A DNA stretch of 64,000 bases from Coriobacteriales bacterium (GCA_050943615.1 JBMNPN010000002.1:224-64223), one strand, 5' to 3'. Positions 510-53,484 are shown, counted from the stretch's first letter. Translations and numbers: made by a program. The notes: generated from the sequence alone by a model not told the origin.

Positions 510-2019
<1,510 letters not shown>

Positions 2020-2236: not shown

Positions 2237-5204
<2,968 letters not shown>

Positions 5205-5299
5205 TCTGACGAGCGTCTCTCGCGTCGGGATCGTCGTCGCGTCCGTCTGCGCGCTATGCGGGCCTTCAGGGTGCTCTCCGAACCGGAGGCCCCCGGCGG

Positions 5300-5416
5300 G
5301 CTCAGTGACCATGGAGGAGGGGGCACACCCGGTCCCATTCCGAACCCGGAAGTTAAGCCCTCCATCGCCGATAGTACTGCGGAGGAAGTCCGTGGGAGGG
5401 TAGGACGTCGCTGATC
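5300..5416 (+). rRNA. rrf: 5S rRNA
   Basis: CCGGTCCCATTCCGAACCCGGAAGTTAAGC core; helix I TCAGTGAC/GTCGCTGA; flanked by a perfect 13-bp inverted repeat CGGAGGCCCCCGG (5284-5296) / CCGGGGGCCTCCG (5420-5432). Confidence 0.97.
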
Positions 5417-6360: not shown

Positions 6361-7581
6361 TCACAGCGAGAGCGCGCGCACTTGCTCGTCGCTCAAATCG
6401 ACCGCGAACACGTTCTTGAAGTAGTCGCGCACGGCCTGCTCCATGTCGAGGGAAATCAGCTCGGGGTAGAGCAGGTCGCACATCCACTCCATCCCGAGCA
6501 GGCAATTGACCCCGTTGGGGTCGGTGAGCCAGTTGAAGGGGGTCATCGGCACCGCCCGATAGGCACCCGACCTCACGGCATCAAGCGACGCATAGTATTC
6601 GGCCAGCGTGCTGTCCAAGCTGCTGCTCGCGTCCTTGCCTGCGCGCATCTTGTCGAGCTGCTCGACAAAGCCTGGCGGGGCCACGATGAAATCGGGGCTC
6701 ATCCCGAGCCCCGCGTACTCCGCGACAGAGTACCCGTTTTGCCCGGGAATGAGCGTCGCATCGTTGCTTTCGTAGCCGACGTTTTCCGCCTCGGCGGGCT
6801 CGGGGATGGCATTGAGGGCGCCCGCAAAGTGCAGGCTGTAGGCGTAGGGCTCCTTGAACGACGCGGCTTGTGTGCCCTTATCGTCCATGACGAAGAGCAC
6901 GCGCTTGGCCGTGTCATCGGAAAGGCGCGCGCGCACGGAGGCAAGGTTGTCGATGACGTCCTGGCAGTAGCTCGCTGCGGTCTGCGAACGCGCTCCCCTT
7001 CCAAAGAGGCGCCCCATACGGCGCAGAGTGTTGGGAATCTGGTCGAAGTGGCCGCCATAGCAGATGACGGGAATGCCGAGATACGCCTGCAGCTCGTCAA
7101 GCAGCTGGGTGTGCTCGGAGTTCTTTCCGTAGGTGTGCAGGCTCAAGATGAGCTGCGTGTTAGTGGACTCGAGCCATTGCTTGCTCGTTCCGTCGGCGCT
7201 GATTTCCGGGTGAACGGCAGTCGAGCCAAGCGCCGGCGGAAAATACGACCGCGCCTGCTCGCTCGAGCTGGATTGCATCAGCCCCGAAATGATTTCGGGC
7301 GCAAGCGCGATGCTGAGAAGCTCCGAGGATTCGTCGAGAAAGGCGACGTGCTCGAGGCGGTCCGGCTGGGGGACATCAATTGAACGTCCGAGGTAGTCCG
7401 TGATCTGCGTGTCTCCGGTGCTCATGCGCGTTCCTTCCGCGACGAAGGGCGGCAGTGCAGAGCCTGCCAGAATCGCGACGGGAACGATCATGCCCATTCT
7501 CCTGAGAAAGTCCCGGCGGGAAAGGTCGCCTCCGCCGTCGCGTGGTGCAACCTCTATGCTATCCGTCTGCACGCCGCTCAT
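6361..7581 (-). CDS. Tat-exported ABC substrate-binding protein (Fe-siderophore/B12, helical-backbone class)
   Basis: SRRDFL twin-arginine motif; ITDYLGRSIDVP..LEHV and C-terminal VPMTPFNWL..P...LLGMEWMCDLLYPE typical of BtuF/FhuD-like SBPs. Confidence 0.8.
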   Translation of the reverse strand: MSGVQTDSIEVAPRDGGGDLSRRDFLRRMGMIVPVAILAGSALPPFVAEGTRMSTGDTQITDYLGRSIDVPQPDRLEHVAFLDESSELLSIALAPEIISGLMQSSSSEQARSYFPPALGSTAVHPEISADGTSKQWLESTNTQLILSLHTYGKNSEHTQLLDELQAYLGIPVICYGGHFDQIPNTLRRMGRLFGRGARSQTAASYCQDVIDNLASVRARLSDDTAKRVLFVMDDKGTQAASFKEPYAYSLHFAGALNAIPEPAEAENVGYESNDATLIPGQNGYSVAEYAGLGMSPDFIVAPPGFVEQLDKMRAGKDASSSLDSTLAEYYASLDAVRSGAYRAVPMTPFNWLTDPNGVNCLLGMEWMCDLLYPELISLDMEQAVRDYFKNVFAVDLSDEQVRALSL

Positions 7582-8759
7582 GCCCGGCCTCCTTTCGTGC
7601 CGCTGTTGCCGGGAGAGGCACCGCCCGTCGCAGCGTCTTCGTCGGCAAACACGCCCTTTGCGGCTTTCTCGATGCTCTCGAGCAGCTCGGCTCGGCTGCT
7701 GATGCCGAGCTTTGCGTACCCGTGCTTTGCATGCGTGTTCACGGTGTTGCGAGAGACCGTCAACTTCTCCGCGATGCGCGTGCGCGTGTCGCCATAGGCA
7801 ATCATCTCGACGATCTCTTCTTCGCGCCCGGTCAAGCCGAAGTGTTCGGAAAGGGCACGACAGCCGTCCCTGAGGCTGTTCTCCTTGTTGATTTTGTACT
7901 GCGCCTCGATATAGGAGGTGTCGGGAGTGGGCACGGCAAGCGGCTTTTTAAAGATCGCGTCCTTTCTGCAGACGAGACGCATGCTCACGAGCACGACCGC
8001 GAAGACAAGGCTGGAGCACAGCATGCACACCAGCCAACCGCCCAAACTGGTGTAGGGGTAATCGTAGAGGTTTGCGAGCAAGACGCAGGCCATCGCGAGA
8101 GAGACCGCGCACAAGATGCCGAGAACCACCAAGAAGGCGTCGCTTTTTGCGACGGCGCCTTCCGGTGAGTTGTCGATGACGCGCCATGCAAGGCTCCACA
8201 TGGCAAGCGCGAGGGTGGCAAAGCCCATCGCGGCGGGTACGAGAAAGAACGCAGCCCACGTCGCCGCGCCCTCGGGAACGGCGAAGATGGGAACGAACAG
8301 GGCAATGGGCGTCAAATGGAGCAGGCGCAGGGGCCACGGCGTGTTCAGGCGCATTCCGTTGTCGACGAGCGCCTGCAACGTCACGGGAAACAGCGCCACT
8401 TCGATGAGGGCGAGAAAGATCCACAGCAGCATGAACGCGATCTGGCTTCGGTGATACCAGAGCAGCCATGAGCAGAAAACCGTGGCAACGATCACAAGCA
8501 CGAGCGTCACCGTACCGATAACGAGCCAAAAGGGCGTCTTGATAAGAGAGGACATCGGCGGGAGCTGCGCCGGGCGCCGGAACGCGACGAAAGCCCAGGC
8601 AATGCAGGCAAAGCCCACCACGCGCGCGAGCAGCGAGGCGAGCGGCTCGCTGTACAGCGCGACGAGCGAAACTGCCACCCAGACGAGAAAGCCCGCAAGA
8701 GCGACGCGAACCTCGTTTGCGGAGAGCTTCCGCGAGTCTTTTTTGTGAGCTTTCGGCAA
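7578..8759 (-). CDS. transmembrane LuxR-family transcriptional regulator
   Basis: About 8 hydrophobic helices then LTGREEEIVEMIAYG..IAEKLTVSRNTVNTHAKHGYAKLGISSR (LuxR HTH); TTG start with GAAGGA RBS. Confidence 0.9.
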   Translation of the reverse strand: MPKAHKKDSRKLSANEVRVALAGFLVWVAVSLVALYSEPLASLLARVVGFACIAWAFVAFRRPAQLPPMSSLIKTPFWLVIGTVTLVLVIVATVFCSWLLWYHRSQIAFMLLWIFLALIEVALFPVTLQALVDNGMRLNTPWPLRLLHLTPIALFVPIFAVPEGAATWAAFFLVPAAMGFATLALAMWSLAWRVIDNSPEGAVAKSDAFLVVLGILCAVSLAMACVLLANLYDYPYTSLGGWLVCMLCSSLVFAVVLVSMRLVCRKDAIFKKPLAVPTPDTSYIEAQYKINKENSLRDGCRALSEHFGLTGREEEIVEMIAYGDTRTRIAEKLTVSRNTVNTHAKHGYAKLGISSRAELLESIEKAAKGVFADEDAATGGASPGNSGTKGGRA

Positions 8760-8782
8760 AAAATTCCTTCCGGAAAAGAAAT

Positions 8783-8801
8783 ATCACCGCAGGGTGGTGA
8801 T
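8783..8801. promoter_or_regulatory. palindromic operator copy 1 (ATCACC-GCAGGGT-GGTGAT)
   Basis: Lies in the 79-bp gap between the divergent luxR and permease genes; same motif at 12227 and 16287. Confidence 0.75.
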
Positions 8802-8838
8802 GGCATTCTCTCTAGCCGCATCTGAGAATAGTCGCGCT

Positions 8839-10146
8839 ATGAAGCATCTGTCAAAACACAATTCCGAACAAGAGGAATCTCTTTTCGTGGATGGCGAAGA
8901 AAGCCTTCGCCCTCCCTCCGTGCGCCTCGATGGCACGGGGCAGGCACCTGCCGACTCCGCCGTCGCGCCCACGGGCGATGCCCCGGCCCGCAGGCCCATG
9001 GACCCGCGGGCACGCAAGGTCGTCATCTTGCTGATCGTTTTTCTTGCCGTGCTCGTGTTCGCGCTGTTCATGCCCCATAACGCCGCGACGATTGCGTTTA
9101 CCCCGGTCCCCAGCGTGCACTTGTCCTCTCCCGCGGAGTTTACCCGGGCACTGCAGGAGCGCGCGGGGCAGGTGTTTTCCGCGCTCTCTCTAGATGCGGA
9201 CTTCATGTCCTATTCGGCGATCACCACGGTTTTCGTGGTCATGCTCACGGGTGCGGGGCTGAGCCTTTCGGGCGCGGTCTATCAAGGCGCGTTCAGAAAC
9301 GCGCTTGCCTCTCCTTCCACGTTCGGCGTGATGGGAGGCGCTCTGGTTGGATTCGGCATCTTCGAGCTTTGGGATGCCCCTGCTGATGAGAATTTCGGGG
9401 GCTTCTCATGGGGCCTCGTTTTTGATTACTACGATCCGATTCAGCACCTGTGGTACCGATTCATGCCCTGCGTTTTCAGCTTCGTGTTCGCGATGCTGAC
9501 GGTTGCAATCGTGCTGCTCGTGGTAAAGAAGAGCGGGTCTTCGCGTGATTCGAAGGTCTACACCGTGGTCGTGGGGCAGCTGGTCGCTGCCGTGTGCACG
9601 GGCATCTACAACTGCATCAAAACCTATTACTGCCGTGTCGATCCCTATGGCAGTCGAACCGGCGTTCTTCGCAATGCGCAGGCCTCGGTTTTTGGCGGCA
9701 CGCTTGACCTGTTTGCCCTCATTGGCATTGCCGTGCCCATGGTGCTCATCATCATCTTTGCCATGCGCAACAGCCGAAAGCTCATGCTGCTCTCCTTTGG
9801 AGACAAGGAAGCGCAGAGCATGGGCATTGCCTCCGACAGCCTGCGCATCGGCGCTATCGTTGCCTGCACCGCTCTCACCGCGCTCATCGTGGGGTTCTGC
9901 GGTCCCATCGGCTTCGTGGGCTTTTTCATCCCGCATGTGACGCGCAAGCTCGTCGGGCCGGTCTTCACGTACTTCTTGCCGGCAGCGATGCTGATGGGCG
10001 GGGCCTTTACCATGGGCGTTTACGCGATAACGGCGTACTTCTCGAATACGAGTATGGCGGGGCCTGCCATCTCGCTCATTGGGGCCGTCGCCTTCTTCGT
10101 GGTCGCGCTGCAGCAAAGGGGGAGCCGTCATGGCGATTGGGTCTGA
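8839..10146 (+). CDS. FecCD/BtuC-family ABC permease
   Basis: GAGLSLSGAVYQGAFRNALASPSTFG and LSFGDKEAQSMG...GPIGFVGFFIPH motifs. Start moved to ATG 8839 because the track start overlaps the operator. Confidence 0.9.
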   Translation: MKHLSKHNSEQEESLFVDGEESLRPPSVRLDGTGQAPADSAVAPTGDAPARRPMDPRARKVVILLIVFLAVLVFALFMPHNAATIAFTPVPSVHLSSPAEFTRALQERAGQVFSALSLDADFMSYSAITTVFVVMLTGAGLSLSGAVYQGAFRNALASPSTFGVMGGALVGFGIFELWDAPADENFGGFSWGLVFDYYDPIQHLWYRFMPCVFSFVFAMLTVAIVLLVVKKSGSSRDSKVYTVVVGQLVAAVCTGIYNCIKTYYCRVDPYGSRTGVLRNAQASVFGGTLDLFALIGIAVPMVLIIIFAMRNSRKLMLLSFGDKEAQSMGIASDSLRIGAIVACTALTALIVGFCGPIGFVGFFIPHVTRKLVGPVFTYFLPAAMLMGGAFTMGVYAITAYFSNTSMAGPAISLIGAVAFFVVALQQRGSRHGDWV

Positions 10147-11389
10147 AGAGACTAAAGGGTCGGCAATTGCCACGCGGGGCATTGGCTACGAGCGCGTCGA
10201 TTCGCTGCGCGCAGAGGAGCGGCGTAACCTGCGCCGTCGCTGCCTTACCTGCGTGGTCGTCACCGCGGTACTGGCCGTGCTCTCGCTCAACATCATCGCG
10301 CACCTTTATTCCGGCACGATTATCGATGCGCCTTTCATCGGGTATATCGCCAACCCTGCCGTCGTGGTGCTCTCCTTGCAGCAGGCGCTCCATAACATCA
10401 TTCCTGTGTTCCCGGAGGTTGATGCCCAGAACTTTGCCTCGGTGCTAGCCAATTCGAGCATCAGCAACCTCGATTTCGGGAATACGACCGATACTCTCAA
10501 TATGTATGCTTGGTATGAAGGAGAGCGCGTCACCACGATCATCCTCACGCTCCTTTGCGGCACATTGCTTGCGCTTTCGGGCATGCTGTTCCAGAACGTC
10601 TTCAAGAACCCCATCGCCACCCCGGCCATGCTCGGCGCGCAAAGCGGCATGACCCTGGGCGTCATGCTGTTCGTCTCCATCTTTGGCTTTTCGGTGGGGA
10701 TATACTCCTTTCCCCGCTACGCCCTGAGCTACGGTTGCGCCCTCGTCATCTTGGCTGCCGCTTTTGCCGGCGCCAAGTTCATCAGCGGCAAGCGCCCGTT
10801 TTCCGTCGTGGACCTGCTCTTGGTGGGCGCGGCGCTCGGTGCTATCGCGAACACGATTGTGCAGTACGCACCGCTTGGGTGGGACGAGGGGAAGTGGTCG
10901 GAGTTCTTCGCTCTTTCCGAGTCGGTTGCGACCGATACCTCACCCGTTGCCTGGATATCGGTGGGTGTTGCGTGCCTGGCGGGAATCGTGCCCATCTATC
11001 TGCTGCGCTTCCAGCTCAACATGCTCGCCTTCGACGACCTCGAGGTGCGCATGCTGGGGGTCGACCCCTCGCGCCTGCGCATCATCTGCCTGCTCTGCGG
11101 TTCTCTCATGACGCTCGTCTCGATCGTGACCTGCGGGCTTGTTGCCATGGCGGCGCTCGCGGTGCCTTTCCTCACACGCTATCTCTTTGGCACCGAGGCA
11201 CGTGAGCAGTTCTGGGGCAACCTGTGCCTGGGGCCGCTTGTCCTGTTGGTATGCCGCGACGTGACGGACTTGCTACAGATGGCTTTTTTCCAGCTCCAGT
11301 ATGGCCTCACGCTCGGCACCGTCGTCTCAGTGCTCGCGTTGCCGCTGGTCATCGTCCTTGCACGGGGCGAGGCGCGGGGGTGGTCATGA
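10130..11389 (+). CDS. FecCD/BtuC-family ABC permease
   Basis: LALSGMLFQNVFKNPIATPAMLG and LNMLAFDDLEVRMLG motifs; ATG 10130 overlaps the upstream gene end. Confidence 0.9.
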   Translation: MAIGSEETKGSAIATRGIGYERVDSLRAEERRNLRRRCLTCVVVTAVLAVLSLNIIAHLYSGTIIDAPFIGYIANPAVVVLSLQQALHNIIPVFPEVDAQNFASVLANSSISNLDFGNTTDTLNMYAWYEGERVTTIILTLLCGTLLALSGMLFQNVFKNPIATPAMLGAQSGMTLGVMLFVSIFGFSVGIYSFPRYALSYGCALVILAAAFAGAKFISGKRPFSVVDLLLVGAALGAIANTIVQYAPLGWDEGKWSEFFALSESVATDTSPVAWISVGVACLAGIVPIYLLRFQLNMLAFDDLEVRMLGVDPSRLRIICLLCGSLMTLVSIVTCGLVAMAALAVPFLTRYLFGTEAREQFWGNLCLGPLVLLVCRDVTDLLQMAFFQLQYGLTLGTVVSVLALPLVIVLARGEARGWS

Positions 11390-12174
11390 TGCGCCTTTCC
11401 GTGAGCAACGTGGCGGTGGGCTACGACCCGCAACACCCCCTTCAGACCGGCATCACCTTCGAGGCAAAGGGCGGCGACGTCTTTTGCATCCTGGGCCCCA
11501 ATGGCTGTGGCAAGACGACGCTGTTTCGCTCGATTGTGGGCGTGCAGCCGCTGCTCGAGGGCAAGGTGCTGGTGGACGATGAGGACATCACGGGCTGGAG
11601 CGCCGATCGCATCGCCCATGTCGCTGCCTACGTTCCGCAGAAAAACCGCCTCGAGTTTCCCTACAAGGTCAAAGACATCGTCATGCTCGGGCGTTTCATC
11701 CATGTTCTCGGGCGCTTTTCCATGCCGGGGCGCGAGGACTACGCCATCGTGGAAAACGCCCTCGACATGCTCGGCATCTATCACCTGCGCAACCGGTTCT
11801 ACACAGATCTTTCCGGTGGCGAGCTGCAGATGACGATGATTGCCCGCGCGCTCGCACAGGAGCCGCAGATCCTCTTTTTGGACGAGCCGACAAGTGCTCT
11901 CGACTTTGGTGCGGCATCCACGGTCATCAAGAGCATCCGACACCTCGCGAGCCTGGGCTACACGGTGGTCATGACCACGCACAGCCCCAATCACGCGTTT
12001 CTCTGCAATGCCAAGGTCGCGCTGCTGCGTGCCGATGGTCCCGCGACAGTGGGGGACGCGCGCGACGTGATCACCGAGCCGAACATGAAGCGCTCGTACG
12101 GTGCCCACGTCAAGGCGGTCGAGTACGTGGACCGGCAGGGCAAGGTTATGCGCGTCTGCGTTCCCAACATGTAG
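11386..12174 (+). CDS. FecE/BtuD-type ABC ATPase
   Basis: GPNGCGKT, LSGGELQ, FLDEPT, TTHSP; ATGA overlap with the permease stop. Confidence 0.93.
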   Translation: MMRLSVSNVAVGYDPQHPLQTGITFEAKGGDVFCILGPNGCGKTTLFRSIVGVQPLLEGKVLVDDEDITGWSADRIAHVAAYVPQKNRLEFPYKVKDIVMLGRFIHVLGRFSMPGREDYAIVENALDMLGIYHLRNRFYTDLSGGELQMTMIARALAQEPQILFLDEPTSALDFGAASTVIKSIRHLASLGYTVVMTTHSPNHAFLCNAKVALLRADGPATVGDARDVITEPNMKRSYGAHVKAVEYVDRQGKVMRVCVPNM

Positions 12175-12226
12175 GAGCGGAAAGCGCGATGGCAGGTCAT
12201 CGCCGTTTTCGGGCTGTTTTGCAAAT

Positions 12227-12245
12227 ATCACCACAGGATGGTGAT
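12227..12245. promoter_or_regulatory. palindromic operator copy 2 (ATCACC-ACAGGAT-GGTGAT)
   Basis: Upstream of moxR; followed by TTGAAA (12245-12250), 18 bp, then GATAAT (12269-12274). Confidence 0.75.
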
Positions 12246-12342
12246 TGAAAAATCGCTTCTCGCGCGTGGATAATCCGCCAAAGAAGCTAGTGGAAACTCG
12301 AGTGTTTCAGGCGCGAAGAACTCGAACAAGAGGGAAGGTCAA

Positions 12343-13419
<1,077 letters not shown>

Positions 13420-13422
13420 CAT

Positions 13423-14766
13423 ATGGAGCTCGCGCTAAAAAATCCGGTAAGGCTGGTCAGGCCAAAGCGCACAGAGAAGTCGGCCATCGAAGCCGATTTT
13501 GCGCAGGTTGCCGCCGAGCGCACACGCCGGCGTGCCTTCATCCAATCTGTCATTAGAAAAGTTCTGGCCGTCGCGCTGACGCTCGCGGTGTGCGTGCTGA
13601 TGTGCGTCTACGTGAACAATCCCTTCGGGTACGTCCCGCTCGTGCTCGTCATCCTCGCCGTCGTGGCGGACTTTGCCTGTGTCCAGGTGCTCTCGCGCCA
13701 GGTCACGTGGCGGCAGGAGTCACGTGTGGGGGACTGCCCCCGCGGCGAGGACATCGACTTTCGCATCCGCGTGAGCAACCGCAGCATCCTGTTCATGTTC
13801 CACGCACGGGCGCACTTCTTTGTGAGCGACCTCTTTGGCGGCCTTGCGATGGACAACCCCGCAGACTTCGTGCTCGGCCCCTTCGAGAGCCGCGACTTCG
13901 ACATCACCGTGAACTTCAAGCACCTCGGCACCTACACTGCCGGCATCGACCGTATCGAGTTCTTTGGCTTTCTGGGCCTGTTCGTGCGCACGGTAGAGGG
14001 CGGCAACCGTGCGGAGGTCCAGGTCACGCCCACCATCCACAGCATCGAGCGCATCGGGTTTTCCACGGACACGCCCTCCGAATCCAGGGTGGCGCTCAAG
14101 ACGGTCGCCGATGACTCCATGGACTATTCGGGTGTGCGCGAATACCACCGCGGCGACCCGCTCAAGCGCATGCACTGGGCGCTTTCGGCCAAGGGGAACA
14201 AGACGCTCTATACCAAGATCTACGAGACGCCCACCAATCCCGGTGTTGGCATCATCCTCGACTTTGCGGGGCCGTCGGGGCTCACCGCAGATGAGCTGGG
14301 CGGCATGTTCGACACGGTCGTGGAAAGCGCGTTTTCCATCAGCGAATACGCACGCGGCATCGGCCTCGAGGTGGAGCTTGAGTTCATCGACCGCTTTGGC
14401 ACCGCGGTGCGCAAGAGCAGCTGGAAGCGCGACGAGCTCGCAGAGCTCGTCGATGATATGCCCCGCATGCAGCCCGGTGGCGAGAGCCATCAGGCAGCAG
14501 AGCTCGTCAATTCGGAGGCGCATTCCATGTACGCGCAGGGAAACATCGTCATCTGCACGGCACTTCCCAGCGCCGAGATCGTGGACGCTGCCATCGCCGT
14601 CAAGATCGGCCGCCGCAACCCGGTCGTGGTGCTCGCGATTCCCGAGGGCCTCTCCGAACGCGAGCGCATTGCGTGGTGCGCGCCGCTCGAGCGGCTCAGC
14701 GCAAGCGGCATCGGCTATACGGTGCTCGACAGCCCCGATGCGATCGGCAAGGTGAACGTGGCATGA
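13423..14766 (+). CDS. DUF58 domain membrane protein
   Basis: Two N-terminal TMs; GVREYHRGDPLKRMHWALSAK DUF58 signature; follows moxR. Confidence 0.88.
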   Translation: MELALKNPVRLVRPKRTEKSAIEADFAQVAAERTRRRAFIQSVIRKVLAVALTLAVCVLMCVYVNNPFGYVPLVLVILAVVADFACVQVLSRQVTWRQESRVGDCPRGEDIDFRIRVSNRSILFMFHARAHFFVSDLFGGLAMDNPADFVLGPFESRDFDITVNFKHLGTYTAGIDRIEFFGFLGLFVRTVEGGNRAEVQVTPTIHSIERIGFSTDTPSESRVALKTVADDSMDYSGVREYHRGDPLKRMHWALSAKGNKTLYTKIYETPTNPGVGIILDFAGPSGLTADELGGMFDTVVESAFSISEYARGIGLEVELEFIDRFGTAVRKSSWKRDELAELVDDMPRMQPGGESHQAAELVNSEAHSMYAQGNIVICTALPSAEIVDAAIAVKIGRRNPVVVLAIPEGLSERERIAWCAPLERLSASGIGYTVLDSPDAIGKVNVA

Positions 14767-16202
14767 GCAGAGCAGCTGCAAGAACAGGCCGCAAAGGTGG
14801 TGCGGCACGCTTCTTAAAGGAGAACGCCTTCGAGTTCGTGCTCCTCGTGCTCTGCAGCACGTGCCTTTCCATGGAGGTGGGCGACGGCTTCAACATAGCC
14901 TACGAGACGCTCTTCAACCTCCCGTTCGTGATCGGCAGCTCTGCCGTCTTGCTGGCCGTGTGCTATCTGGGCGCCTTTGTATGGCAGCACCAGCCCAGGC
15001 GCACCTGGATCGTGGCGCTGGCATGTATTGCGGTCATGGGCGTTGTCGTGTGGGCGAGCGTCTCGATATTCCAGGAGGGCACCTCGGAGTACTACAGCTA
15101 CGCCCAGCGGGCCCGGGTGCCAGACGGCACGGATGCAAAGACCTCGTACGGTTTCGTTCTGGCCATCGTGCCCGTGCTCACGTTTCTGCTCTCGCGCCGC
15201 CGTGGTCTGTGCGTGGTCCTGTTCGCGCTGGGCATATTCGTGTGCGGTCTGGTGCAATGGCTTTTCAAGGAATGGCTCTGGGTTCCCTTCATCGGGTTTC
15301 TCCTGGGGTCGGGAACGCTCTTCATCCTGCGCACCTACCGGCTGCAGCGCGGAAAAGCCTCAGGCCTGACGGTGGGTTCGGGGCGCCGGGCCCCGGGGTT
15401 TCATGCAAGCGTCACGGCCGTGCTGGTGCCCGTCGTATTGGTAGCCGCGTCTTTCGGCATCTGGTACGGCGTCATCGCACCGCAGAACCCGCAGGCAGCG
15501 CAGCTCAAGCTCGTGCAGGTGACCTATCAGCCACAGGTGGACATACTGACCAACTACCGCAAGAAGGCACCGAGCCAGATCGATAGAACGCAGTTCTCGA
15601 GCGAGGTTGACGACAGATACACGCTCTACACCTCCAACCCAGGTGGAGAGGGAACCGTCAAGACCCCTGAGGATGACAAGTCGAAGAACAAGATCAAGAT
15701 GGCCGGTGGCGGCGGTGTGAGCTATGCGTTCCAGAACCTCTCGGACAACCTGAACAATATCACCTACGGTGCCCCCAACTGGCTGCCCTACCTGCTCGTG
15801 GCGCTGCTCATCGCGCTCATCGTGGGCGCGATCATGCTGCGCAGGTACCTGCGCAAGCGCTGGTACACGAGCTTGGACGAGCACACGCAGGGCTACCGCG
15901 TCTGCGCGCTCTACGATCGCATCACGCGCAATTTCCAGCGCATGCGCCTCTCCAAGCCTGCGCCCGCCACGCAATCCGAGTGGGCCCAGAGCACTGTGGG
16001 CACCATGGCGGCGTTCGAACAAGACGCGCACGGGACGAGCTACCGCGAGCTTTCGGATATCTACGAGCGCGTCTACTACGGTCATTCCGACCCTTCGGAA
16101 GGCGATGTTGCCGCCTTCGAGTCATTCTGGAAGGTGTTCTACAAGAACGCGCGCAAGTACTCTGGACCCGTGCGCTACATCTGGCGCTTTTGGAGGATCT
16201 GA
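14763..16202 (+). CDS. multi-TM protein with C-terminal DUF4129-like domain
   Basis: About 8 TMs, a soluble loop, one TM, then ATQSEWA...LSDIYERVYYG (DUF4129-like); third gene of the MoxR/DUF58 triad. Confidence 0.7.
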   Translation: MSRAAARTGRKGGAARFLKENAFEFVLLVLCSTCLSMEVGDGFNIAYETLFNLPFVIGSSAVLLAVCYLGAFVWQHQPRRTWIVALACIAVMGVVVWASVSIFQEGTSEYYSYAQRARVPDGTDAKTSYGFVLAIVPVLTFLLSRRRGLCVVLFALGIFVCGLVQWLFKEWLWVPFIGFLLGSGTLFILRTYRLQRGKASGLTVGSGRRAPGFHASVTAVLVPVVLVAASFGIWYGVIAPQNPQAAQLKLVQVTYQPQVDILTNYRKKAPSQIDRTQFSSEVDDRYTLYTSNPGGEGTVKTPEDDKSKNKIKMAGGGGVSYAFQNLSDNLNNITYGAPNWLPYLLVALLIALIVGAIMLRRYLRKRWYTSLDEHTQGYRVCALYDRITRNFQRMRLSKPAPATQSEWAQSTVGTMAAFEQDAHGTSYRELSDIYERVYYGHSDPSEGDVAAFESFWKVFYKNARKYSGPVRYIWRFWRI

Positions 16203-16286
16203 TGCGTGAATCCGGGGCCTCACCACACCCGGTTTCAGGCTAAACCCGAGGTGAGGAGTGAGGGATTTTTCGACCAAGAGGCAAAT

Positions 16287-16305
16287 CTCACCACAAGGTG
16301 GTGAT
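16287..16305. promoter_or_regulatory. palindromic operator copy 3 (CTCACC-ACAAGGT-GGTGAT)
   Basis: About 300 bp upstream of the lipoprotein gene; same GCAAAT 5' flank as copy 2. Confidence 0.72.
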
Positions 16306-16598
16306 TGTTTTCACGTTCATTTCGAGCCAAAAATAGACTCGCTTTCGAATGGATATTTCACAAGAAAGTGACTGCCAATGTTGATCAGGCAGCCCAGCAA
16401 CAACTTTTTAGGTGCGGGGAAGGTGTTTACATGAATTTGAAATGCATTTGTCCAAGGCGGTGTGGCCGGAGAGTGTTGCCATGCCGCCTATTCGTTTATT
16501 GCTTATTTTCGCCTAATCATTAAGTTCCCGTAGCTGTCATTGCCGCGGAGGTGCTTCTACCCAACGCCTTCCGCTGGCGGAAAGAAGATACCTGCTCC

Positions 16599-18740
16599 AT
16601 GCCGTTGCGCAAAGGACATAGCAAACACTCGCGCTACCTGCGCGCGCTGATGGCGGCGCTGCTCGTCGTCGCGGCGGCGTGCGCGCTCCCGGCGTGCAAG
16701 TTCTCCGACACGATCGCCGAGTTCGTGCCCGACATGGCCGCCGCCGTCGACACCACCATGCCCCACGTGGACAAGGCGGACACCGACGGCAAGCAGGACA
16801 CCCAGGGCGCCGCCCAGCACAAGTCCGGCGAGGAGGACACGAGCGACATCGCCGCCGTCGCATACGACCCGGACGCCGAGGACAGCAAGTTCAAGTCAGC
16901 GAAGGTCGAGTACGACGCGGAGCAGGCCCAGACCGACACCCAGCCCTCCGCGGGCGGGGAGAAGCGCGCGGAGGAGAAAGACACTTCGGGGCTGAAGTCG
17001 CAGAAGACCGCGGGCGGGAAGTCCGGCGAGGACGGCTCGGGCTCCGGCTCGGGCGGAACGGGCTCCGGTAACGGCGGGGACGGCGGCGACGGCGAGGGCA
17101 AGGGCGCCGGCTCGGGCTCCGGCTCTGGTAGCGGGAGCAGCGAGCAGGCCGCCCCATCGGTGTCCCAGGACGAGGACGACGACAATAAGACCGAGGTGCC
17201 GAGCGGCAAGCGCATCGCGGCGACCGGCGAGACCGCCAACATCGTCCAGATGCTCACCGGCGAGCTGCGCAAGGAGCAGCTCGACGCGGGCCAGGAGGGC
17301 GACTACCTGGTCGCGACGGACGAGGCCTTCCAGGACGGCGTTGCCTCCGCCGGGGTATACCCGGGGGAGGGGGTCGACGAGGCGGTTCTGGGCTGGAAGC
17401 GGAAGAACGGCACCGAGAAGGGGGGCGTCGACGTCGAGGCGCTCAAAAAGGCCAAGGTCGACCTCGTCGTCTACGAGTCGAACACGGCCACGCTCACCGA
17501 GAGCGACGTCGACGCCCTGGGGGAGGCCGGCATCAAGGTGCTCGCCGTGAGCTCGCTCACGCAGGACAGCGACATCTGCGATGCCGTCGAGCAGGTCGCA
17601 GAGGCGCTCTCCAAGGGGGCGGGCGCAAAGGCCAAGAAGGCGATCTCCTCCAAGGCGGCCTCGTGGGAGGACTTCCACGACGGCCTGCTGAACTCGGTGA
17701 CGCGCCTCAACGACGGCTGGAGCGTGGCGTACGCCCACAACACACACGACGACAAGAGGTTCGTTGGCTACGACTTCGACTGGGTCTCCACGGCGAAGAA
17801 CGCCACGGGCGACCACAAGCTGACGCTCGTCTGCCCGCGCGTCGTCTCGGTGGGGAGCTACCCCTCCCTCGAGAAGCTCGGGTACAGCCTCGACACCCTC
17901 CTCGCGGTGCCGAAGAGCTGGTTCGCCTCGCCCTGCTACCACTACCTCTCGGCCGCGGGGGTCGTGGACAACGCCCAGTGGCTCCAGCTCGCCAAATGGG
18001 TGCGTATTATAAAATCTGAAGTAGCACACGGCCGGCTCGTGGAACACAACCCCTACGCCATCGACGACAGCTCTTGGTCCTACTCGATTTCCCCCTCGCG
18101 CTACCGTGTCGTCGTCCCGGTGTTCACGCGCGGAGAATCGTCGAGCGTCAGGGCGTCCTCCGGCCTCGAATCGGGGGAGTCGCTCGACTTCAGTCTGAAT
18201 ACCTATGGCTATGTGCAGGTTGGCGACCTTCCCAGCTACGTGATGGGGAACTACTGCATCGAGCCGTATGTGGACTGGGAAAATTACTCGTTGCACACTA
18301 TTCGCAACATAGAGGATGTGGAAGACGACAGCTACTTCCTGGGGTCCGACCACTTCCCCGCGGTGGTGGTGGAGACGGAGGAACAGAAGGAGTCCGTGCA
18401 GGCGGCGCAGGATGACAGGACGAGCATGTACTGGTTCGCCGACAACCTCAGGGAGTGGAGGCAGCTGTACACGGACGGGTCCTCATCGTCGGAAAAGTTA
18501 GATGCAATGAACCCCAACGCGTCCCTGCTCGCCGGGAAGTTCGACGTCTACGTCGCCCCGAGCGGCGTGCTCGGGTCGTGGCTCGAGGGCGGCTCGCACG
18601 AGTCGTTCCTGCTCTCCGCCTGGGCGCGCAGCGCCTACTACGGCGACTACTCGTCGAGCAAGGCCCAGGCCAAGGCGAGAAGCTACTACGGGGAGTTCTA
18701 CCGGGCCGAGGGCGCCGCGCCGGACATGGGCAGAGGCTAG
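16599..18740 (+). CDS. lipoprotein with long Gly/Ser linker and SBP-like domain
   Basis: Signal with lipobox LPAC; low-complexity GSG linker; KRIAATGETANIVQML, KAKVDLVVY and C-terminal YVAPSGVLGSW resemble helical-backbone SBPs; paralog of 60019-61902. Confidence 0.7.
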   Translation: MPLRKGHSKHSRYLRALMAALLVVAAACALPACKFSDTIAEFVPDMAAAVDTTMPHVDKADTDGKQDTQGAAQHKSGEEDTSDIAAVAYDPDAEDSKFKSAKVEYDAEQAQTDTQPSAGGEKRAEEKDTSGLKSQKTAGGKSGEDGSGSGSGGTGSGNGGDGGDGEGKGAGSGSGSGSGSSEQAAPSVSQDEDDDNKTEVPSGKRIAATGETANIVQMLTGELRKEQLDAGQEGDYLVATDEAFQDGVASAGVYPGEGVDEAVLGWKRKNGTEKGGVDVEALKKAKVDLVVYESNTATLTESDVDALGEAGIKVLAVSSLTQDSDICDAVEQVAEALSKGAGAKAKKAISSKAASWEDFHDGLLNSVTRLNDGWSVAYAHNTHDDKRFVGYDFDWVSTAKNATGDHKLTLVCPRVVSVGSYPSLEKLGYSLDTLLAVPKSWFASPCYHYLSAAGVVDNAQWLQLAKWVRIIKSEVAHGRLVEHNPYAIDDSSWSYSISPSRYRVVVPVFTRGESSSVRASSGLESGESLDFSLNTYGYVQVGDLPSYVMGNYCIEPYVDWENYSLHTIRNIEDVEDDSYFLGSDHFPAVVVETEEQKESVQAAQDDRTSMYWFADNLREWRQLYTDGSSSSEKLDAMNPNASLLAGKFDVYVAPSGVLGSWLEGGSHESFLLSAWARSAYYGDYSSSKAQAKARSYYGEFYRAEGAAPDMGRG

Positions 18741-18806
18741 CGGCCCCGGGCCCTTCATGTACAGGACCATGTCGATAACCGTGCAAGTTTGATGAGGACA
18801 TATATT

Positions 18807-21800
18807 ATGGAGATTCAAAGTACGTATAGGCAAACAGAAAATCGGAGAAGGTGGAAAGCTGCCTTCTGGGCTCTTGCCGCCGCGGCATTCGCGGCACTCG
18901 CCTTCCTTCCGCTGAGCGCTCTTGGAGATACGTCGCAGGTGATCAAGGTTGGCGCTTCCGAGTATTACAAGACGCTGTCGGACGCTGTTGCCAGCGCTGC
19001 CGGTGACGAGAACAACCAGAATGTCACCTTCCAGCTCACCAGCGACGTCTACCAGGGCACGAAGCAGGTGGACGTCAATCTTCCCGCTGGGGCAGAGTGG
19101 ACCATCGACCTCGGCACCCACACCCTGAGCACGGACAACAGTAAATCGGGTACCACATCGCTTGTCTCGGTGACCCACGTGGCCGCCGAGGAGGGCACGG
19201 ATACCCCGGGAACCCTGAATATCGTCGGCGATTCAAGTGTCAAAGGCACAATCTCCTGCACCGATGCGGCACCAAAGTATGCCGTGCAAGTAAGTTCCAA
19301 CAACGTCGTCAACATGAGTAACGTCGCCGTGAATTTCGACTCGTCGAAAACGAGCGGTATCAATGGCTTGTATATAAGCGGTACAACAACGGGAAACGCG
19401 GTGCTCAATGCGGACAGCTGTGCGTTTACTGTAAAGAACTCGTATATTAATGCAGAAAATGGTAATGGCGGCAGCGCATTTTGTGCCCGAGTTGGCAGTA
19501 ACACCACAGCAAGCTTCTCGCAGTGCTCGTTCACTGCCGAGGCTACAGCAAACGCTTACTGTGTTTATGGAATCAAGGGAATATCTGTCAAGCTCAGCGG
19601 GGCAAACACCCTTTCAACCTCTGCGACTTCCGAATATGCGAACAATTCTGTTCCAATTTATGTGTCCTCTGGTGCTGACAGCCTGGTCCTCGAAAACCAG
19701 GAGGGCTCATCAAACGGTATCAGCTTCTTCATCTCGAACGAGAGCACCGAGCCAGCAGCGGTTTCTGCAGCGATACGACTTCCTTCCAATGACGCCCCTA
19801 CGACCCTAAACGCGCCTTTATCGATTTGGCACAGCTCCTCGACGCAGGGCTTTGTGGGGATGACGGGGTGCAGCACGAAAAAGACAATATACGTTGGCCC
19901 CAATTTCTCCGTCGTTTCGCAGGCAGAGAAAGCCGGCGGCACCTGGGACAGCACCTTGGACATCGCGCGCGATGACACCTATGACACCTATGTCGATGGC
20001 GCTCGCTTTGCCCGCGCAACCGCAGCGGGGGTTTCCCTCGCGGACAAGGCGGGGTATTTCAAGCTGATGAACTCGGCATGGCTCGAGGCGAGCGCCAAGG
20101 AGGACAGCGAGGACGCGACAATTCAGGCGCTCTATTGGACTGCGGTTCCCCAGACCGAACCCGAGGCAGTTATCGGAGATGTAGAGTACACGACGCTTGC
20201 GGATGCGCTTGCCGCAAAGAAGGACGGGGACGTGATCAAGCTCGGTCGCGACATCTATCTTGCAGAATCGATTAGCTTCACCGACTCCGAGGGCGAGACG
20301 AGTCCCACCTACACGCTCGATCTGAACGGACATGACATCGTCTGCACGACCCGCATCGCCCCGGTCCTCAACTACTCAGGCTCCGGCACGCTCAATATCG
20401 TCGACAGCGTGACGAACGCGGACTCTGCCGCCGCGGTCGCGCACACGATCACCGACGCGACTTCCCCGAACGGGTACTGGACGGCAACAAGCAGCTCGAA
20501 GTATAAGACCCTGCAGCAATCAGCCACCCTCGTGAACTCCGGCACCGGCACGCTCCAGGTTTCCGGCGTGCGCATTCATGGCACCTTCAACTGCATCTAC
20601 AACTCGGGGGAAGGCTCCACGAGCGTCGAGAACTGCAAGGTGGAGCAATCAGACAACGTCAAGTACTCGAACACCAAGAACCATGTGTTCTGGGGCAGCA
20701 ATATCACGGCGACGAACAACGCAGTGGTGGTAAATTCATACAGTGCATCTTATACTGCATATAGTCAAGCTGGTAGCGGTATCAGTACTTTTGGCACGCG
20801 TGTGTTCAGCGGGACCAACATCAAGGTCTACGGGGGCAGCTACCAGTTCGATTCCGAGAATTACTACCTGAGCAGCGCCATTTTCGACGGTACCGCGGGA
20901 AACGACATCTCTATCGACGGGATCATCTCCTACGACCTGGGCGGCAGGATCGACACTGTGGACTTTGGCGGCGGCGGTGCCACCGACGGCAAGTTCACGA
21001 CGCGTATGTCCGCGTGGTTCTTGGGCTTTGATACTACCACTAGTACGATCTATAACACTAAAGCGCCCCAATCCCTCAAGCTGGGCGCTAACTTCAAGCC
21101 CACGGATATGAGCGGCAATGCACAGCCGGTTGAATTCTATACTGATCTCAGTGCTAAAGGATTGAGTTCCTATTCCCTCAAATCGTATCGCGGGGCCGTG
21201 GTCTTCGAGCCGATGGAGGGAGTGGACCTTCAGTCAAGCTACGGCGACGAGCTCTCCGATCTGCTGGTGGACACGGCGGGAAACTACACGCCCGTCATCG
21301 AGGACGGAAACATCTGCTGGAGCAGCACGTACCATGTGCGCGCCTATGGAGCAGCTTTCTCGAAGCAACTGAGCGGAGCCGGTGTCTATCTTTCGTTCAC
21401 CGAACGGTACAACCCGACGGGCACCAACGCCGTCTATTACCTGAACCCCACGAGCGTCGATGCCGATGCTGAGGGCAAGGTGACGTTCACGTTGCCCGAG
21501 ACGGTATCCGGGACCGAGGAGGGAGTCTCGCTCGTGCCGGAAGACGCCCACGGCACGCATGTCGAGTGGACCGGCAAGTGGTTCGTCTCGAAAGAATGGC
21601 TCAGCGAAAATACGTTGAAGAACACCGTAGAAGACGATTTTGACTACGAGGGAGCTGGATATCTGCTCGTCGATGCCGGCGAGAGCATCTCGATCGACGA
21701 GGACGACATCGACCAAGATATCTATATCTGGCCTCAGATCAAGCACACGCAATATCCCTACTACCTCTCTTACGAGCTGAACGGCGGGGACGAGGCGAGT

Positions 21801-23576: not shown

Positions 23577-23789
23577 GACAAGGTAATCGTCCCGGCTTTC
23601 ACGCCCCGTCCTCCCTGGGGCGTGGCCGGGTTGCCGATTGACGAAGCCGGCCCCGCGGGCACTGAACTGCTTTCGCGGGGCCGACGCTTTGTTTTTCGAT
23701 TCGCCTGCAGCGCGGGTTCGTGCGGGTGCTGCCTGAGCGCAACGCCGGCACGAGGCCGCGCATACGTGAACGAGGAGGTTCGCCAAAGC

Positions 23790-51686: not shown

Positions 51687-51694
51687 GCTCTTGT

Positions 51695-53475: not shown

Positions 53476-53484
53476 GGGCCTCAC

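What the first reader, a model, noticed from the sequence alone, without database searches (positions are those of the whole stretch)
8783..16334. Three-site mini-regulon: (A/C)TCACC-N7-GGTGAT abutting predicted -35 elements
Copies at 8783-8801, 12227-12245 and 16287-16305 precede the permease operon, moxR and the lipoprotein gene. All have an AAAT 5' flank. The last T of each is the first base of a -35-like hexamer (TGGCAT, TTGAAA, TTGTTT), with an xAxAAT -10-like hexamer 17-18 bp further on (8824, 12269, 16329). This geometry fits class II activation. The adjacent divergent TM-LuxR is the obvious candidate regulator (inference). The shared site also ties the ABC, MoxR and SBP genes into one regulon.
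Basis: partly seen in the sequence, partly recalled or inferred. Interest (0 to 1): 0.68.

Follow-up and report, generated by a model that had tools for sequence, protein, structure and literature searches.

The report
Shared LuxR-type operator at three promoters
A 19-bp palindrome (ATCACCa-N5-TGGTGAT) sits directly against the -35 box of three promoters in one gene cluster of an uncultured Coriobacteriia bacterium. It is also kept in two distant relatives next to the same membrane-spanning LuxR-type regulator, so it is very probably that regulator's DNA-binding site, a real but fairly ordinary kind of switch.

Summary
TCACC-N7-GGTGA occurs exactly three times in 64 kb (8784, 12228, 16288), against 0.04 expected by chance. 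All three copies are intergenic, face the same way, carry an AAAT 5' flank, and are followed at once by a -35-like hexamer and, 17-18 bp later, an rAnAAT -10-like hexamer.

New evidence comes from two orthologous cassettes in other metagenomes (permease 45-46% identical, LuxR 29%). Both keep the same palindrome between the divergent multi-TM LuxR gene and the first FecCD permease gene. The distance to the promoter hexamers and to a conserved ATG (MKH...) is also kept, 37-38 nt, which implies a leaderless or near-leaderless mRNA. The rest of the intergenic DNA does not align. Homologous cassettes that lack this LuxR lack the motif, and so do 1.75 Mb of control loci.

Best reading: this is the operator of the adjacent 8-TM LuxR/GerE regulator, centred near -44/-45, which activates three transcription units (ABC importer; MoxR-DUF58-DUF4129; lipoprotein-LRR protein).

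- The 713-aa lipoprotein shows no similarity to a substrate-binding protein (SBP). The SBP-like gene is 6361-7581, in the LuxR operon.
- The closest relative lacks the site upstream of moxR.

Binding, activation and transcription start sites remain untested. This is a new member of a known kind.

The parts
8779..8801 (+). Operator site 1: AAAT flank plus ATCACCGCAGGGTGGTGAT, in the divergent luxR / fecCD1 intergenic region
   Evidence: Orthologous sites at L171:4434-4450 and L172:614-630. A strain variant, G8789A, moves the site towards the consensus TCACCA.
8801..8829 (+). Predicted fecCD1 promoter: -35-like TGGCAT (8801-8806), 17-bp spacer, -10-like GAGAAT (8824-8829). The ATG at 8839 lies 9 nt after the -10, so the mRNA is leaderless or nearly so.
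   Evidence: The orthologs have TTTACA-18-AAGAAT-7 nt-ATG and TTTACA-17-AAAAAT-8 nt-ATG. The N-terminal peptide MKH...EQxxSLF is conserved.
12223..12245 (+). Operator site 2: AAAT plus ATCACCACAGGATGGTGAT, upstream of moxR
   Evidence: Absent from the closest relative, L170.
12245..12274 (+). Predicted moxR promoter: TTGAAA-18-GATAAT
   Evidence: 10 of 12 matches to consensus. moxR ATG at 12343, preceded by the Shine-Dalgarno-like AGAGGGAAGG.
16283..16305 (+). Operator site 3: AAAT plus CTCACCACAAGGTGGTGAT, upstream of the lipoprotein-LRR unit
16305..16334 (+). Predicted promoter of the lipoprotein unit: TTGTTT-18-AAAAAT. The predicted leader to the ATG at 16599 is about 258 nt.
7578..8759 (-). 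Candidate regulator: 393-aa protein with 8 predicted TM helices and a C-terminal GerE/LuxR HTH (residues 309-359). TTG start with the Shine-Dalgarno-like GGAAGGA; the start codon lies 24 bp from site 1.
   Evidence: Ortholog at L171:3191-4411.
6361..7581 (-). 406-aa Tat-signal protein resembling class III (iron/siderophore/B12-type) substrate-binding proteins. It overlaps the luxR stop by 4 bp and so is probably co-transcribed.
   Evidence: PDB 4pag periplasmic binding protein, E 2.7e-10; 6b2x weaker. (ortholog in L171, same position).
8839..12174 (+). Transcription unit 1: FecCD permease (8839-10146), FecCD permease (10130-11389), ABC ATPase (11386-12174)
12176..12215 (+). Terminator-like hairpin plus T-tract after the ABC ATPase gene, just before site 2
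   Evidence: -18.5 kcal/mol; sequence
12343..16202 (+). Transcription unit 2: MoxR AAA+ ATPase (12343-13419), DUF58-like protein (13423-14766), DUF4129 protein (14763-16202)
16213..16272 (+). Terminator-like long hairpin plus TTTTT after the DUF4129 gene, just before site 3
   Evidence: -20.4 kcal/mol; sequence
16599..24593 (+). Transcription unit 3: 713-aa lipoprotein (lipobox LPAC; 16599-18740), about 1590-aa BspA-type LRR / Ig-like surface protein (18807-23576), second ABC ATPase (23622-24593)
   Evidence: The lipoprotein is a paralog of the 627-aa protein beside cassette 2.

Best explanation
The palindrome (A/t/c)TCACC(A/g)-N5-TGGTGAT is the operator of the divergently encoded membrane-spanning LuxR/GerE-type regulator (7578-8759, minus strand).

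Proposed mechanism. A dimer of the C-terminal HTH domains binds the two TCACC half-sites, whose centres are 12 bp apart. The site ends exactly where the -35 hexamer begins, so its centre lies about 44-45 bp upstream of the predicted start. From there the regulator helps RNA polymerase initiate at three sigma-70-type promoters:
- the FecCD/ABC importer genes, whose mRNA is leaderless or nearly so;
- the MoxR-DUF58-DUF4129 genes;
- the lipoprotein / LRR surface protein / second ATPase genes.

The 8-TM N-terminal domain presumably senses a membrane or extracellular signal, as in the multi-TM LuxR activators of Eggerthella lenta. All three targets lie within 8 kb of the regulator's own gene, which suits a membrane-tethered factor. 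Site 1 lies between the divergent luxR-SBP operon and fecCD1, so it may also feed back on the regulator's own expression.

What is shown: the motif, its non-random occurrence, its fixed register with promoter hexamers, its conservation in orthologs together with the LuxR gene, and the functional linkage of the gene modules.

What is inferred: that this LuxR is the binding protein, that the effect is activation, the TSS positions, and the nature of the signal.
For: 1. Non-random occurrence: 3 exact sites against 0.04 expected. PWM scores are far above shuffles and no other site exists in 64 kb.

2. Phylogenetic footprint. Orthologous cassettes L171 and L172 have FecCD1 45-46% identical and LuxR 29% identical over its full length; the partial L172 gene is homologous to the TM domain. 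Both carry TCACCATGG(T/C)GTGGTGA in the same luxR/fecCD1 intergenic region. It is followed directly by TTTACA, then 17-18 bp, then AAGAAT or AAAAAT, then 7-8 nt, then ATG. The distance from GGTGA to the ATG is 37, 37 and 38 nt. The surrounding DNA is otherwise unalignable.

3. Specificity. There are 0 matches to TCACC-N6-TGGTGAT in 182 unrelated or homologous-but-LuxR-less loci totalling 1.75 Mb. The motif is also absent from the paralogous cassette 2 of the same window, from Adlercreutzia L173, and from L004 and L175.

4. Regulator. It has a GerE HTH (E 4e-12). The closest solved relatives are DNA-binding domains of dimeric NarL/LiaR/ChrA/GerE-type regulators that bind inverted repeats. The recognition helix SRNTVNTHA is identical between the two full-length orthologs. 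BldM, another actinobacterial LuxR-type HTH protein, footprints on TCACcCgnncGgGTGA, which has the same TCACC half-site (PMC4125116).

5. Direction of effect. The characterised multi-TM LuxRs of Coriobacteriia (DadR, HcdR, CadR) are activators of adjacent genes, and DadR may autoregulate (PMC9734109). The rigid register of the operator against the -35 in 5 of 5 promoters is typical of activator-polymerase contact.

6. Separate transcription units. Terminator-like hairpins precede sites 2 and 3.

7. Canonical sigma-70 hexamers are used in this organism: the rRNA promoter matches 11 of 12.

8. Module linkage is independent of the motif. FecCD-ABC-MoxR-DUF58-DUF4129 with a lipo713-family protein recurs in cassette 2, L004, L006, L007, L173 and L175.

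9. Within-population variation: in a strain about 5% divergent, the only change across 8738-8840 is G8789A, towards the consensus. The adjacent 46 bp of luxR coding sequence has 7 changes.
Against: - No binding, expression or TSS data exist. No RNA-seq run holds the locus.
- Only three independent lineages are available.
- The closest relative lacks a site upstream of moxR, so sites 2 and 3 are lineage-specific and could be recent copies of a promoter module.
- The -35 hexamers are good in three of five promoters (TTGAAA, TTTACA, TTTACA), so the promoters might not need an activator.
- The predicted centre (about -44/-45) is 2-3 bp upstream of the classical class II position.
- Site 1 lies within or near the luxR 5' region, where binding could just as well repress.
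- The regulator has 8 predicted TM helices, not the 10-12 of the characterised family.
- An unlinked transcription factor cannot be excluded, because the rest of the genome was not available.
Confidence: 0.6

Rival explanations
1. The same operator, bound by the same LuxR or by another protein, acts negatively. A dimer bound flush against the -35 hexamer blocks sigma region 4 or the alpha-CTD, and a signal releases it, so the three units are de-repressed rather than activated.
For: Three of the five promoters have near-consensus -35 hexamers, and the moxR promoter matches 10 of 12, so they look competent without help. Site 1 would lie inside the luxR leader if luxR is transcribed from the minus-strand TTGACA-18-TATTCT promoter, a position typical of autorepression. 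Some LuxR-family proteins act as repressors, for example EsaR-type regulators (established knowledge, not tested here).
Against: The site ends at the -35 and never overlaps the -35 core or the -10. The register is rigid in 5 of 5 promoters. All -10 hexamers lack the first T and are suboptimal. The characterised multi-TM LuxRs are activators.
Confidence: 0.2
2. The palindrome is the site of a transcription factor encoded elsewhere in the genome, for example a metal- or cofactor-responsive regulator of the FecCD-type importer. The neighbouring LuxR is then coincidental or acts through a different, unrecognised site.
For: FecCD-type importers are usually under global iron or cofactor control (established knowledge). 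Only 64 kb of the genome was visible. There is no direct evidence of binding.
Against: The motif and this LuxR co-occur in 3 of 3 orthologous loci, while homologous FecCD/MoxR cassettes without the LuxR lack the motif. No DtxR/IdeR or Fur box is found within 3 mismatches. A TCACC half-site has precedent for a LuxR-type HTH. There is no other site in the window.
Confidence: 0.13
3. The element works as RNA or as a repeat: a hairpin that terminates, attenuates or stabilises transcripts, or a small REP/MITE-like repeat with no regulatory protein.
For: The palindromes can fold into 7-9-bp hairpins of -7.6 to -10.7 kcal/mol. The simple scan lists site 3 (+) and site 1 (-) among terminator-like hits.
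Against: - Site 1 lies in a divergent intergenic region upstream of a leaderless gene, so it is not in the fecCD1 transcript.
- Stronger dedicated terminators precede sites 2 and 3.
- The arms are invariant in sequence across distant orthologs, with 0 compensatory pairs. This fits base-specific protein recognition.
- Similarity does not extend beyond about 25 bp.
- Rfam finds nothing, even at E up to 1.
- The element keeps a fixed register with the -35/-10 hexamers.
Confidence: 0.04

Closest known systems
lux-box / tra-box type operators of LuxR-family activators (LuxR, TraR, LasR) at class II-type promoters
   Same: An 18-20-bp dyad-symmetric site bound by a dimer of GerE-type HTH domains. 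It lies immediately upstream of, or partly over, the -35 element, and the regulator gene is often adjacent and divergent (established knowledge). Here there is a 19-bp dyad flush with the -35 in 5 of 5 promoters, and the regulator carries a GerE HTH.
   Different: The sequence is unrelated. The predicted centre is about -44/-45, not -41.5/-42.5. The regulator has no autoinducer-binding domain but an 8-TM N-terminal domain. No binding data exist.
Membrane-spanning (10-12 TM) LuxR-type activators of Eggerthella lenta and other Coriobacteriia: DadR, HcdR, CadR (PMC9734109)
   Same: Coriobacteriia lineage. Multi-TM N-terminus plus C-terminal GerE HTH. Encoded next to the genes it presumably controls. 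Possible autoregulation.
   Different: There are 8 rather than 10-12 predicted TM helices. The TM domain has no detectable sequence similarity to other family members. The targets are an ABC importer / MoxR / surface-protein cluster, not a reductase. That paper describes no operator sequence, so the DNA site cannot be compared.
BldM Group I box of Streptomyces, 5'-TCACcCgnncGgGTGA-3' (PMC4125116)
   Same: An actinobacterial NarL/LuxR-type HTH protein that binds as a homodimer to a palindrome with the same outer half-site, TCACC/GGTGA.
   Different: 16 bp (TCACC-N6-GGTGA) against 17 bp (N7) here. BldM is a soluble atypical response regulator. The inner bases differ (CG-rich in BldM, A...T here).
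NarL 7-2-7 and LiaR/VraR-type inverted-repeat sites
   Same: These are the closest solved DNA-binding domains by sequence (LiaR-type 4wt0, ChrA 4yn8, NarL 1je8, GerE 1fse). They bind inverted heptamer-like repeats as dimers.
   Different: They are two-component response regulators. Their half-site sequences and spacing differ (7-2-7 against 7-5-7).
Membrane-tethered one-component regulators ToxR, CadC, TcpP
   Same: The DNA-binding domain is fused to a membrane anchor, so the DNA must be contacted at the membrane. Few targets, often local (established knowledge).
   Different: Those are OmpR/winged-helix proteins with a single TM helix and bind direct repeats. This regulator is polytopic with a LuxR-type HTH and binds an inverted repeat.

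Membership tests
LuxR/GerE-family palindromic operator at an activated promoter | Dyad-symmetric site of about 16-20 bp | tested here: met
   A 19-bp 7-5-7 palindrome. Five arm pairs are invariant in 5 of 5 sites.
LuxR/GerE-family palindromic operator at an activated promoter | A GerE-type HTH regulator is encoded with it and co-varies with it across genomes | tested here: met
   GerE domain, E 4e-12. Motif and LuxR co-occur in 3 of 3 orthologous loci and the motif is absent from LuxR-less cassettes.
LuxR/GerE-family palindromic operator at an activated promoter | Specific binding of the regulator to the site | not testable with these tools
   Needs EMSA, footprinting or DAP-seq.
Class II activator-dependent promoter | Activator site overlaps the -35 region and is centred near -41.5 | tested here: inconclusive
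   The site shares only its last base with the -35-like hexamer. The centre is 32-33 nt upstream of the start of the -10 hexamer, which predicts about -44/-45. No TSS data exist.
Class II activator-dependent promoter | A poor -35 element that makes the promoter activator-dependent | tested here: inconclusive
   Matches to TTGACA are 2/6, 5/6 and 3/6 in the window and 5/6, 5/6 in the orthologs. All -10 hexamers lack the first T.
Coriobacteriia multi-TM LuxR regulators (PMC9734109) | C-terminal LuxR-type HTH with an N-terminal polytopic membrane domain of 10-12 helices | tested here: inconclusive
   HTH at residues 309-359. Only 8 hydrophobic segments by Kyte-Doolittle analysis. The cited paper counts 83 TM LuxRs in E. 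lenta, 'the majority' with 10-12 helices, so 8 lies outside the core definition but inside the wider set.
Coriobacteriia multi-TM LuxR regulators (PMC9734109) | Host belongs to the class Coriobacteriia | tested here: met
   The best LeuRS matches, at 61-65% identity, are all Coriobacteriaceae, Eggerthellaceae or Collinsella. The next group is at 55% or below. The best-named MoxR homologs are Eggerthellaceae or Coriobacteriales.
Coriobacteriia multi-TM LuxR regulators (PMC9734109) | Ligand-dependent activation of neighbouring genes | not testable with these tools
   No expression data.
BldM box | 16-bp palindrome TCACcCgnncGgGTGA | tested here: not met
   The outer half-site TCACC/GGTGA is the same, but the spacing is N7 rather than N6 and the inner bases differ.
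Intrinsic terminator / REP-like hairpin repeat | G+C-rich stem followed by a U-tract, downstream of a convergent or co-directional gene | tested here: not met
   Site 1 and both orthologous sites lie in divergent promoter regions. The hairpins are weak (-7.6 to -10.7 kcal/mol) and only site 3 has a T-tract. Separate, stronger terminators sit upstream of sites 2 and 3.
DtxR/IdeR or Fur iron boxes | Match to the 19-bp consensus | tested here: not met
   No match within 3 mismatches anywhere in the window.
Known structured RNA (Rfam) | Covariance-model match | tested here: not met
   Only the rRNAs match at gathering score. Nothing in 8700-16700 at E up to 1.

The most novel reading that the evidence does not exclude
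This would be the first operator defined for the membrane-spanning LuxR regulators that are hugely expanded in Coriobacteriia. A polytopic membrane protein would bind a 7-5-7 palindrome flush with the -35 and co-activate, from the membrane, three neighbouring promoters. Those promoters together express a conserved but uncharacterised FecCD importer / MoxR-DUF58-DUF4129 / LRR surface-protein machine. If the architecture generalises (a dyad abutting the -35 of a divergent, often leaderless target gene), it would give a rule for assigning targets, and eventually ligands, to the dozens of orphan TM-LuxRs in gut Eggerthellaceae.
Probability: 0.45. Interest if true: 0.6.

Novelty: new member of a known kind. 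Interest (0 to 1): 0.45.

Why it matters
Multi-TM LuxR regulators control drug-, diet- and neurotransmitter-metabolising enzymes in gut Coriobacteriia (PMC9734109). The papers I could search describe no DNA site for them.

A sequence-defined, phylogenetically footprinted operator with a fixed promoter register gives a concrete reagent for binding and reporter assays, and a template for finding targets of related regulators.

The shared operator, together with a recurring gene neighbourhood, also argues that a FecCD-type ABC importer, a MoxR AAA+/DUF58/DUF4129 triad and large lipoprotein/LRR surface proteins form one functional system. That system has no assigned function.

The mechanism itself, a dimeric HTH activator next to the -35, is textbook.

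Tried and rejected
- Metagenome-wide scan with AAATNTCACCNCANGNTGGTGAT gave 6 hits, all apparently coding-sequence coincidences in unrelated organisms (for example a riboflavin-synthase-like N-terminus), about the number expected by chance.
- Genome-collection scan with the composite TCACC-N6-TGGTGAT-N33-41-ATGAAGCA gave 24 hits in unrelated taxa and no Coriobacteriia.
- Searches for the LuxR in GTDB representative genomes, as a single protein and as a two-sequence alignment, returned only generic GerE domains. The protein database held only two weak partial homologs. The clade has no representative genome, so no genome-wide PWM scan was possible.
- RNA-seq runs: none hold the locus. DNA runs come from bioreactor and digester metagenomes.
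- Rfam at gathering score and at E up to 1 found nothing in the cassette.
- The RNA-hairpin reading was rejected: there is no covariation, site 1 is not in the transcript, and separate terminators are present.
- Iron-box reading: no IdeR/DtxR or Fur box.
- Cassette 2's upstream region (59583-60018) was checked for an analogous palindrome. It is AT-rich with only a weak overlapping repeat.
- Single-sequence AlphaFold of the 713-aa lipoprotein gave pLDDT 35, which is unusable, so no fold search was run. Sequence searches against PDB and Pfam found only low-complexity matches.
- More distant FecCD1 homologs (L173-L175, L214-L217) all have a co-directional upstream gene, no divergent LuxR and no motif.
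- Another TM-LuxR locus (L210) was inspected for the same motif. It has a different palindrome.


Full report
**1.

The three 19-mers are at the stated coordinates, each preceded by AAAT:
- ATCACCGCAGGGTGGTGAT (8783-8801)
- ATCACCACAGGATGGTGAT (12227-12245)
- CTCACCACAAGGTGGTGAT (16287-16305)

TCACC-N7-GGTGA has three exact matches in the 64-kb window. The expectation from dinucleotide-preserving shuffles is 0.04, and no shuffle gave more than one. No other spacer length is enriched. A PWM built from the five sites now known scores the window sites 29-32 bits. The next hit, at 18.6 bits, is a universally conserved stretch of 16S rRNA. Shuffled windows reach at most 16.9 bits.

An alignment shows that the T before GGTGA is invariant and that the mirror position after TCACC is A in four of five sites. 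The element is therefore a 7-5-7 palindrome, (A/t/c)TCACC(A/g)-N5-TGGTGAT.

**2. Gene context**

The window begins with an rRNA operon. The best LeuRS matches are Coriobacteriaceae, Eggerthellaceae and Collinsella at only 61-65% identity. The runs that hold the locus are bioreactor and digester metagenomes. The organism is therefore an uncultured, deep-branching member of the Coriobacteriia with no representative genome in the collection.

Gene calls and Pfam give the following layout:
- a 406-aa protein (6361-7581, minus strand);
- a 393-aa GerE/LuxR protein (7578-8759, minus strand);
- two FecCD permeases and an ABC ATPase (8839-12174);
- MoxR, a DUF58-like protein and a DUF4129 protein (12343-16202);
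- a 713-aa lipoprotein with lipobox LPAC (16599-18740);
- a BspA-type LRR / Ig-like giant protein (to 23576);
- a second ABC ATPase (23622-24593).

The LuxR has eight hydrophobic segments ahead of its HTH.

The 406-aa protein has a Tat-type signal (RRDFLRRMG) and matches solved periplasmic binding proteins (4pag, E 2.7e-10; an iron/siderophore SBP more weakly). This protein, not the 713-aa lipoprotein, is the SBP-like partner of the FecCD permeases. The lipoprotein has no Pfam or PDB similarity, and a single-sequence model of it was unusable.

**3. Three transcription units**

Terminator-like hairpins with T-tracts follow the ABC ATPase gene (-18.5 kcal/mol) and the DUF4129 gene (-20.4 kcal/mol), each just upstream of a palindrome.

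Each palindrome is followed at once by a -35-like hexamer that shares its first T with the palindrome (TGGCAT, TTGAAA, TTGTTT). After 17-18 bp comes GAGAAT, GATAAT or AAAAAT.

The organism uses canonical hexamers: the rRNA promoter is TTGACA-16-TATTAT with an upstream TG.

**4. Comparative evidence (the decisive new result)**

The LuxR has almost no detectable homologs. A search with the first permease, however, found two proteins 45-46% identical to it. Their contigs, L171 (ENA ERZ841272) and L172 (Logan SRR30347306), carry the same arrangement.

- In L171 a 406-aa multi-TM GerE protein with a TTG start, followed by an SBP-like gene, lies divergent from fecCD1. It aligns with the window LuxR over its full length at 29% identity, with an identical recognition helix, SRNTVNTHA. 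The SBP-like proteins are 26% identical.
- In L172 the partial upstream gene is homologous to the TM domain of the L171 LuxR.

Both intergenic regions contain the motif:
- L171: AAAT-TCACCATGGTGTGGTGA-TTTACA-18 bp-AAGAAT-7 nt-ATG
- L172: AAAT-TCACCATGGCGTGGTGA-TTTACA-17 bp-AAAAAT-8 nt-ATG
- Window, for comparison: TGGCAT-17 bp-GAGAAT-9 nt-ATG

The distance from GGTGA to the ATG is 37, 37 and 38 nt. The start ATGAAGCAT (MKH) and a downstream EQxxSLF peptide are conserved. This fixes the start codon at 8839 and implies a leaderless or near-leaderless mRNA, a type said to be frequent in Actinobacteria (established knowledge, not checked here). Outside the motif and the hexamers, the intergenic DNA does not align.

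**5. Specificity**

- TCACC-N6-TGGTGAT is absent from 182 loci (1.75 Mb) fetched for other reasons.
- Those loci include homologous FecCD/MoxR cassettes that lack a divergent LuxR: Adlercreutzia equolifaciens L173, plus L004, L175 and L214-L217.
- The window's own paralogous cassette lacks it too. That cassette runs from 59582 down to 48883 on the minus strand, with FecCD 34% and MoxR 58% identical to cassette 1.
- The closest relative's ABC-moxR gap (L170; MoxR 79% identical, same sample as L171) is 90 bp and has no motif. Sites 2 and 3 are thus specific to the window's lineage. In the relative, the ABC and MoxR genes are probably one operon behind the single operator.
- Within the population, a strain about 5% divergent in run X6 shows a single change across 8738-8840, G8789A. 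This turns TCACCG into the consensus TCACCA. The adjacent 46 bp of luxR coding sequence carries seven changes.

**6. Mechanism**

The HTH is closest to the DNA-binding domains of LiaR-type regulators, ChrA, NarL, VpsT, GerE and VraR. These proteins bind inverted repeats as dimers (established knowledge).

BldM, an actinobacterial member of the family, footprints on TCACcCgnncGgGTGA. This has the same outer half-site with one base less spacing (PMC4125116).

The multi-TM LuxRs of E. lenta that have been characterised (DadR, HcdR, CadR) activate adjacent genes, need their TM domain, and may autoregulate. The paper reports no operator (PMC9734109), and I found no later one.

The palindrome centre lies 32-33 nt upstream of the start of the -10 hexamer, about -44/-45 from the predicted start. 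The site is flush with the -35 in all five promoters. I therefore favour activation by a LuxR dimer contacting RNA polymerase, similar to but slightly upstream of a classical class II site.

Repression is the main rival. Three -35 hexamers are good. Site 1 would also fall in the luxR leader if luxR is read from the minus-strand TTGACA-18-TATTCT promoter, whose -10 overlaps the plus-strand -10.

An RNA role is unlikely:
- site 1 is outside the fecCD1 transcript;
- the arms are invariant, with no compensatory changes;
- the hairpins are weak;
- Rfam finds nothing.

No DtxR/IdeR or Fur box is present.

**7. Regulon content**

The link between the three units does not rest on the motif alone. FecCD-FecCD-ABC together with MoxR-DUF58-DUF4129 recurs in cassette 2, in L004, in two Clostridia MAGs (L006, L007), in Adlercreutzia (L173) and in L175. 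The 713-aa lipoprotein is a paralog of the 627-aa protein beside cassette 2 (E 5e-18). Relatives of that 627-aa protein sit directly upstream of FecCD in L173 and L175. The function of the module is unknown.

**8. Verdict**

- the lipoprotein is not an SBP;
- the three-site layout is lineage-specific;
- the position is about -44/-45, abutting the -35 rather than overlapping it.

Binding, the sign of regulation and the TSSs remain untested because no RNA data exist. This is a new member of a known kind. It is of moderate interest as the first sequence-defined candidate operator for the membrane-spanning LuxR regulators of Coriobacteriia.

Noticed in passing
window 47210-61902 (minus-strand operon 59582 down to 48883; divergent gene 60019-61902): A second, paralogous cassette: 1169-aa unknown protein, two FecCD permeases, ABC ATPase, MoxR (58% identical to the first), DUF58, DUF4129, then a PucR-type regulator, with a 627-aa lipo713 paralog divergent from it. 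The genes are tightly packed as one operon. There is no TCACC palindrome and the upstream region is AT-rich.
   Followed up: partly
L004, L006, L007, L173 (Adlercreutzia equolifaciens), L175, L214: The combination of a FecCD pair (with or without an ABC ATPase), MoxR-DUF58-DUF4129 and large LRR or unknown surface proteins recurs in Coriobacteriia and some Clostridia. This looks like a conserved gene module with no assigned function. L004 is labelled Akkermansia but is probably a mis-binned contig.
   Followed up: partly
window 6361-7581 (-): A 406-aa protein with a Tat-like signal and no Pfam hit. It is similar to solved periplasmic binding proteins (4pag, E 2.7e-10). It overlaps the luxR stop by 4 bp, so the transporter's likely SBP is co-transcribed with the regulator rather than with the permeases.
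   Followed up: partly
window 16336-16598, small ORF 16431-16523 (+): The predicted leader of the lipoprotein gene is about 258 nt long. It contains a 30-aa Cys-rich ORF (MNLKCICPRRCGRRVLPCRLFVYCLFSPNH) with a good Shine-Dalgarno sequence (GGAAGG, 7 nt upstream). A 12-bp hairpin followed by a T-rich tract overlaps the ORF, so this may be an attenuator or leader peptide. There is no Rfam match, and the fold z-score is only -1.
   Followed up: partly
window 8825-8854 (-): A minus-strand promoter-like TTGACA-18-TATTCT whose -10 overlaps the plus-strand -10 (GAGAAT, 8824-8829). L172 has a similar pair. This may be a bidirectional promoter that reads luxR-SBP through the operator, which would allow autoregulation.
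   Followed up: partly
window 8789: In a strain about 5% divergent (run X6), G8789A is the only difference across 8738-8840. It converts site 1 to the TCACCAC form of sites 2 and 3.
   Followed up: yes
L210:3868-3884: Another multi-TM LuxR (509 aa) lies divergent from an FAD-dependent reductase, the typical Eggerthellaceae layout. The shared intergenic region has a different perfect palindrome, GTTGAC-N5-GTCAAC. This hints that dyad operators may be general for this family.
   Followed up: no
window 195-222 and 510-5416: A complete rRNA operon (16S, 23S, 5S) with a near-consensus promoter, TTGACA-16-TATTAT, about 290 nt upstream of the 16S gene. No species representative in the genome collection is close to this organism: LeuRS is at most 65% identical and MoxR at most 60%.
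   Followed up: partly
window 12500-12900: Laying metagenome contigs on the moxR gene gives very high depth and many short 'skips' here. These are most likely cross-mapping of the conserved AAA+ core of MoxR genes from other community members, not variants of this locus.
   Followed up: no
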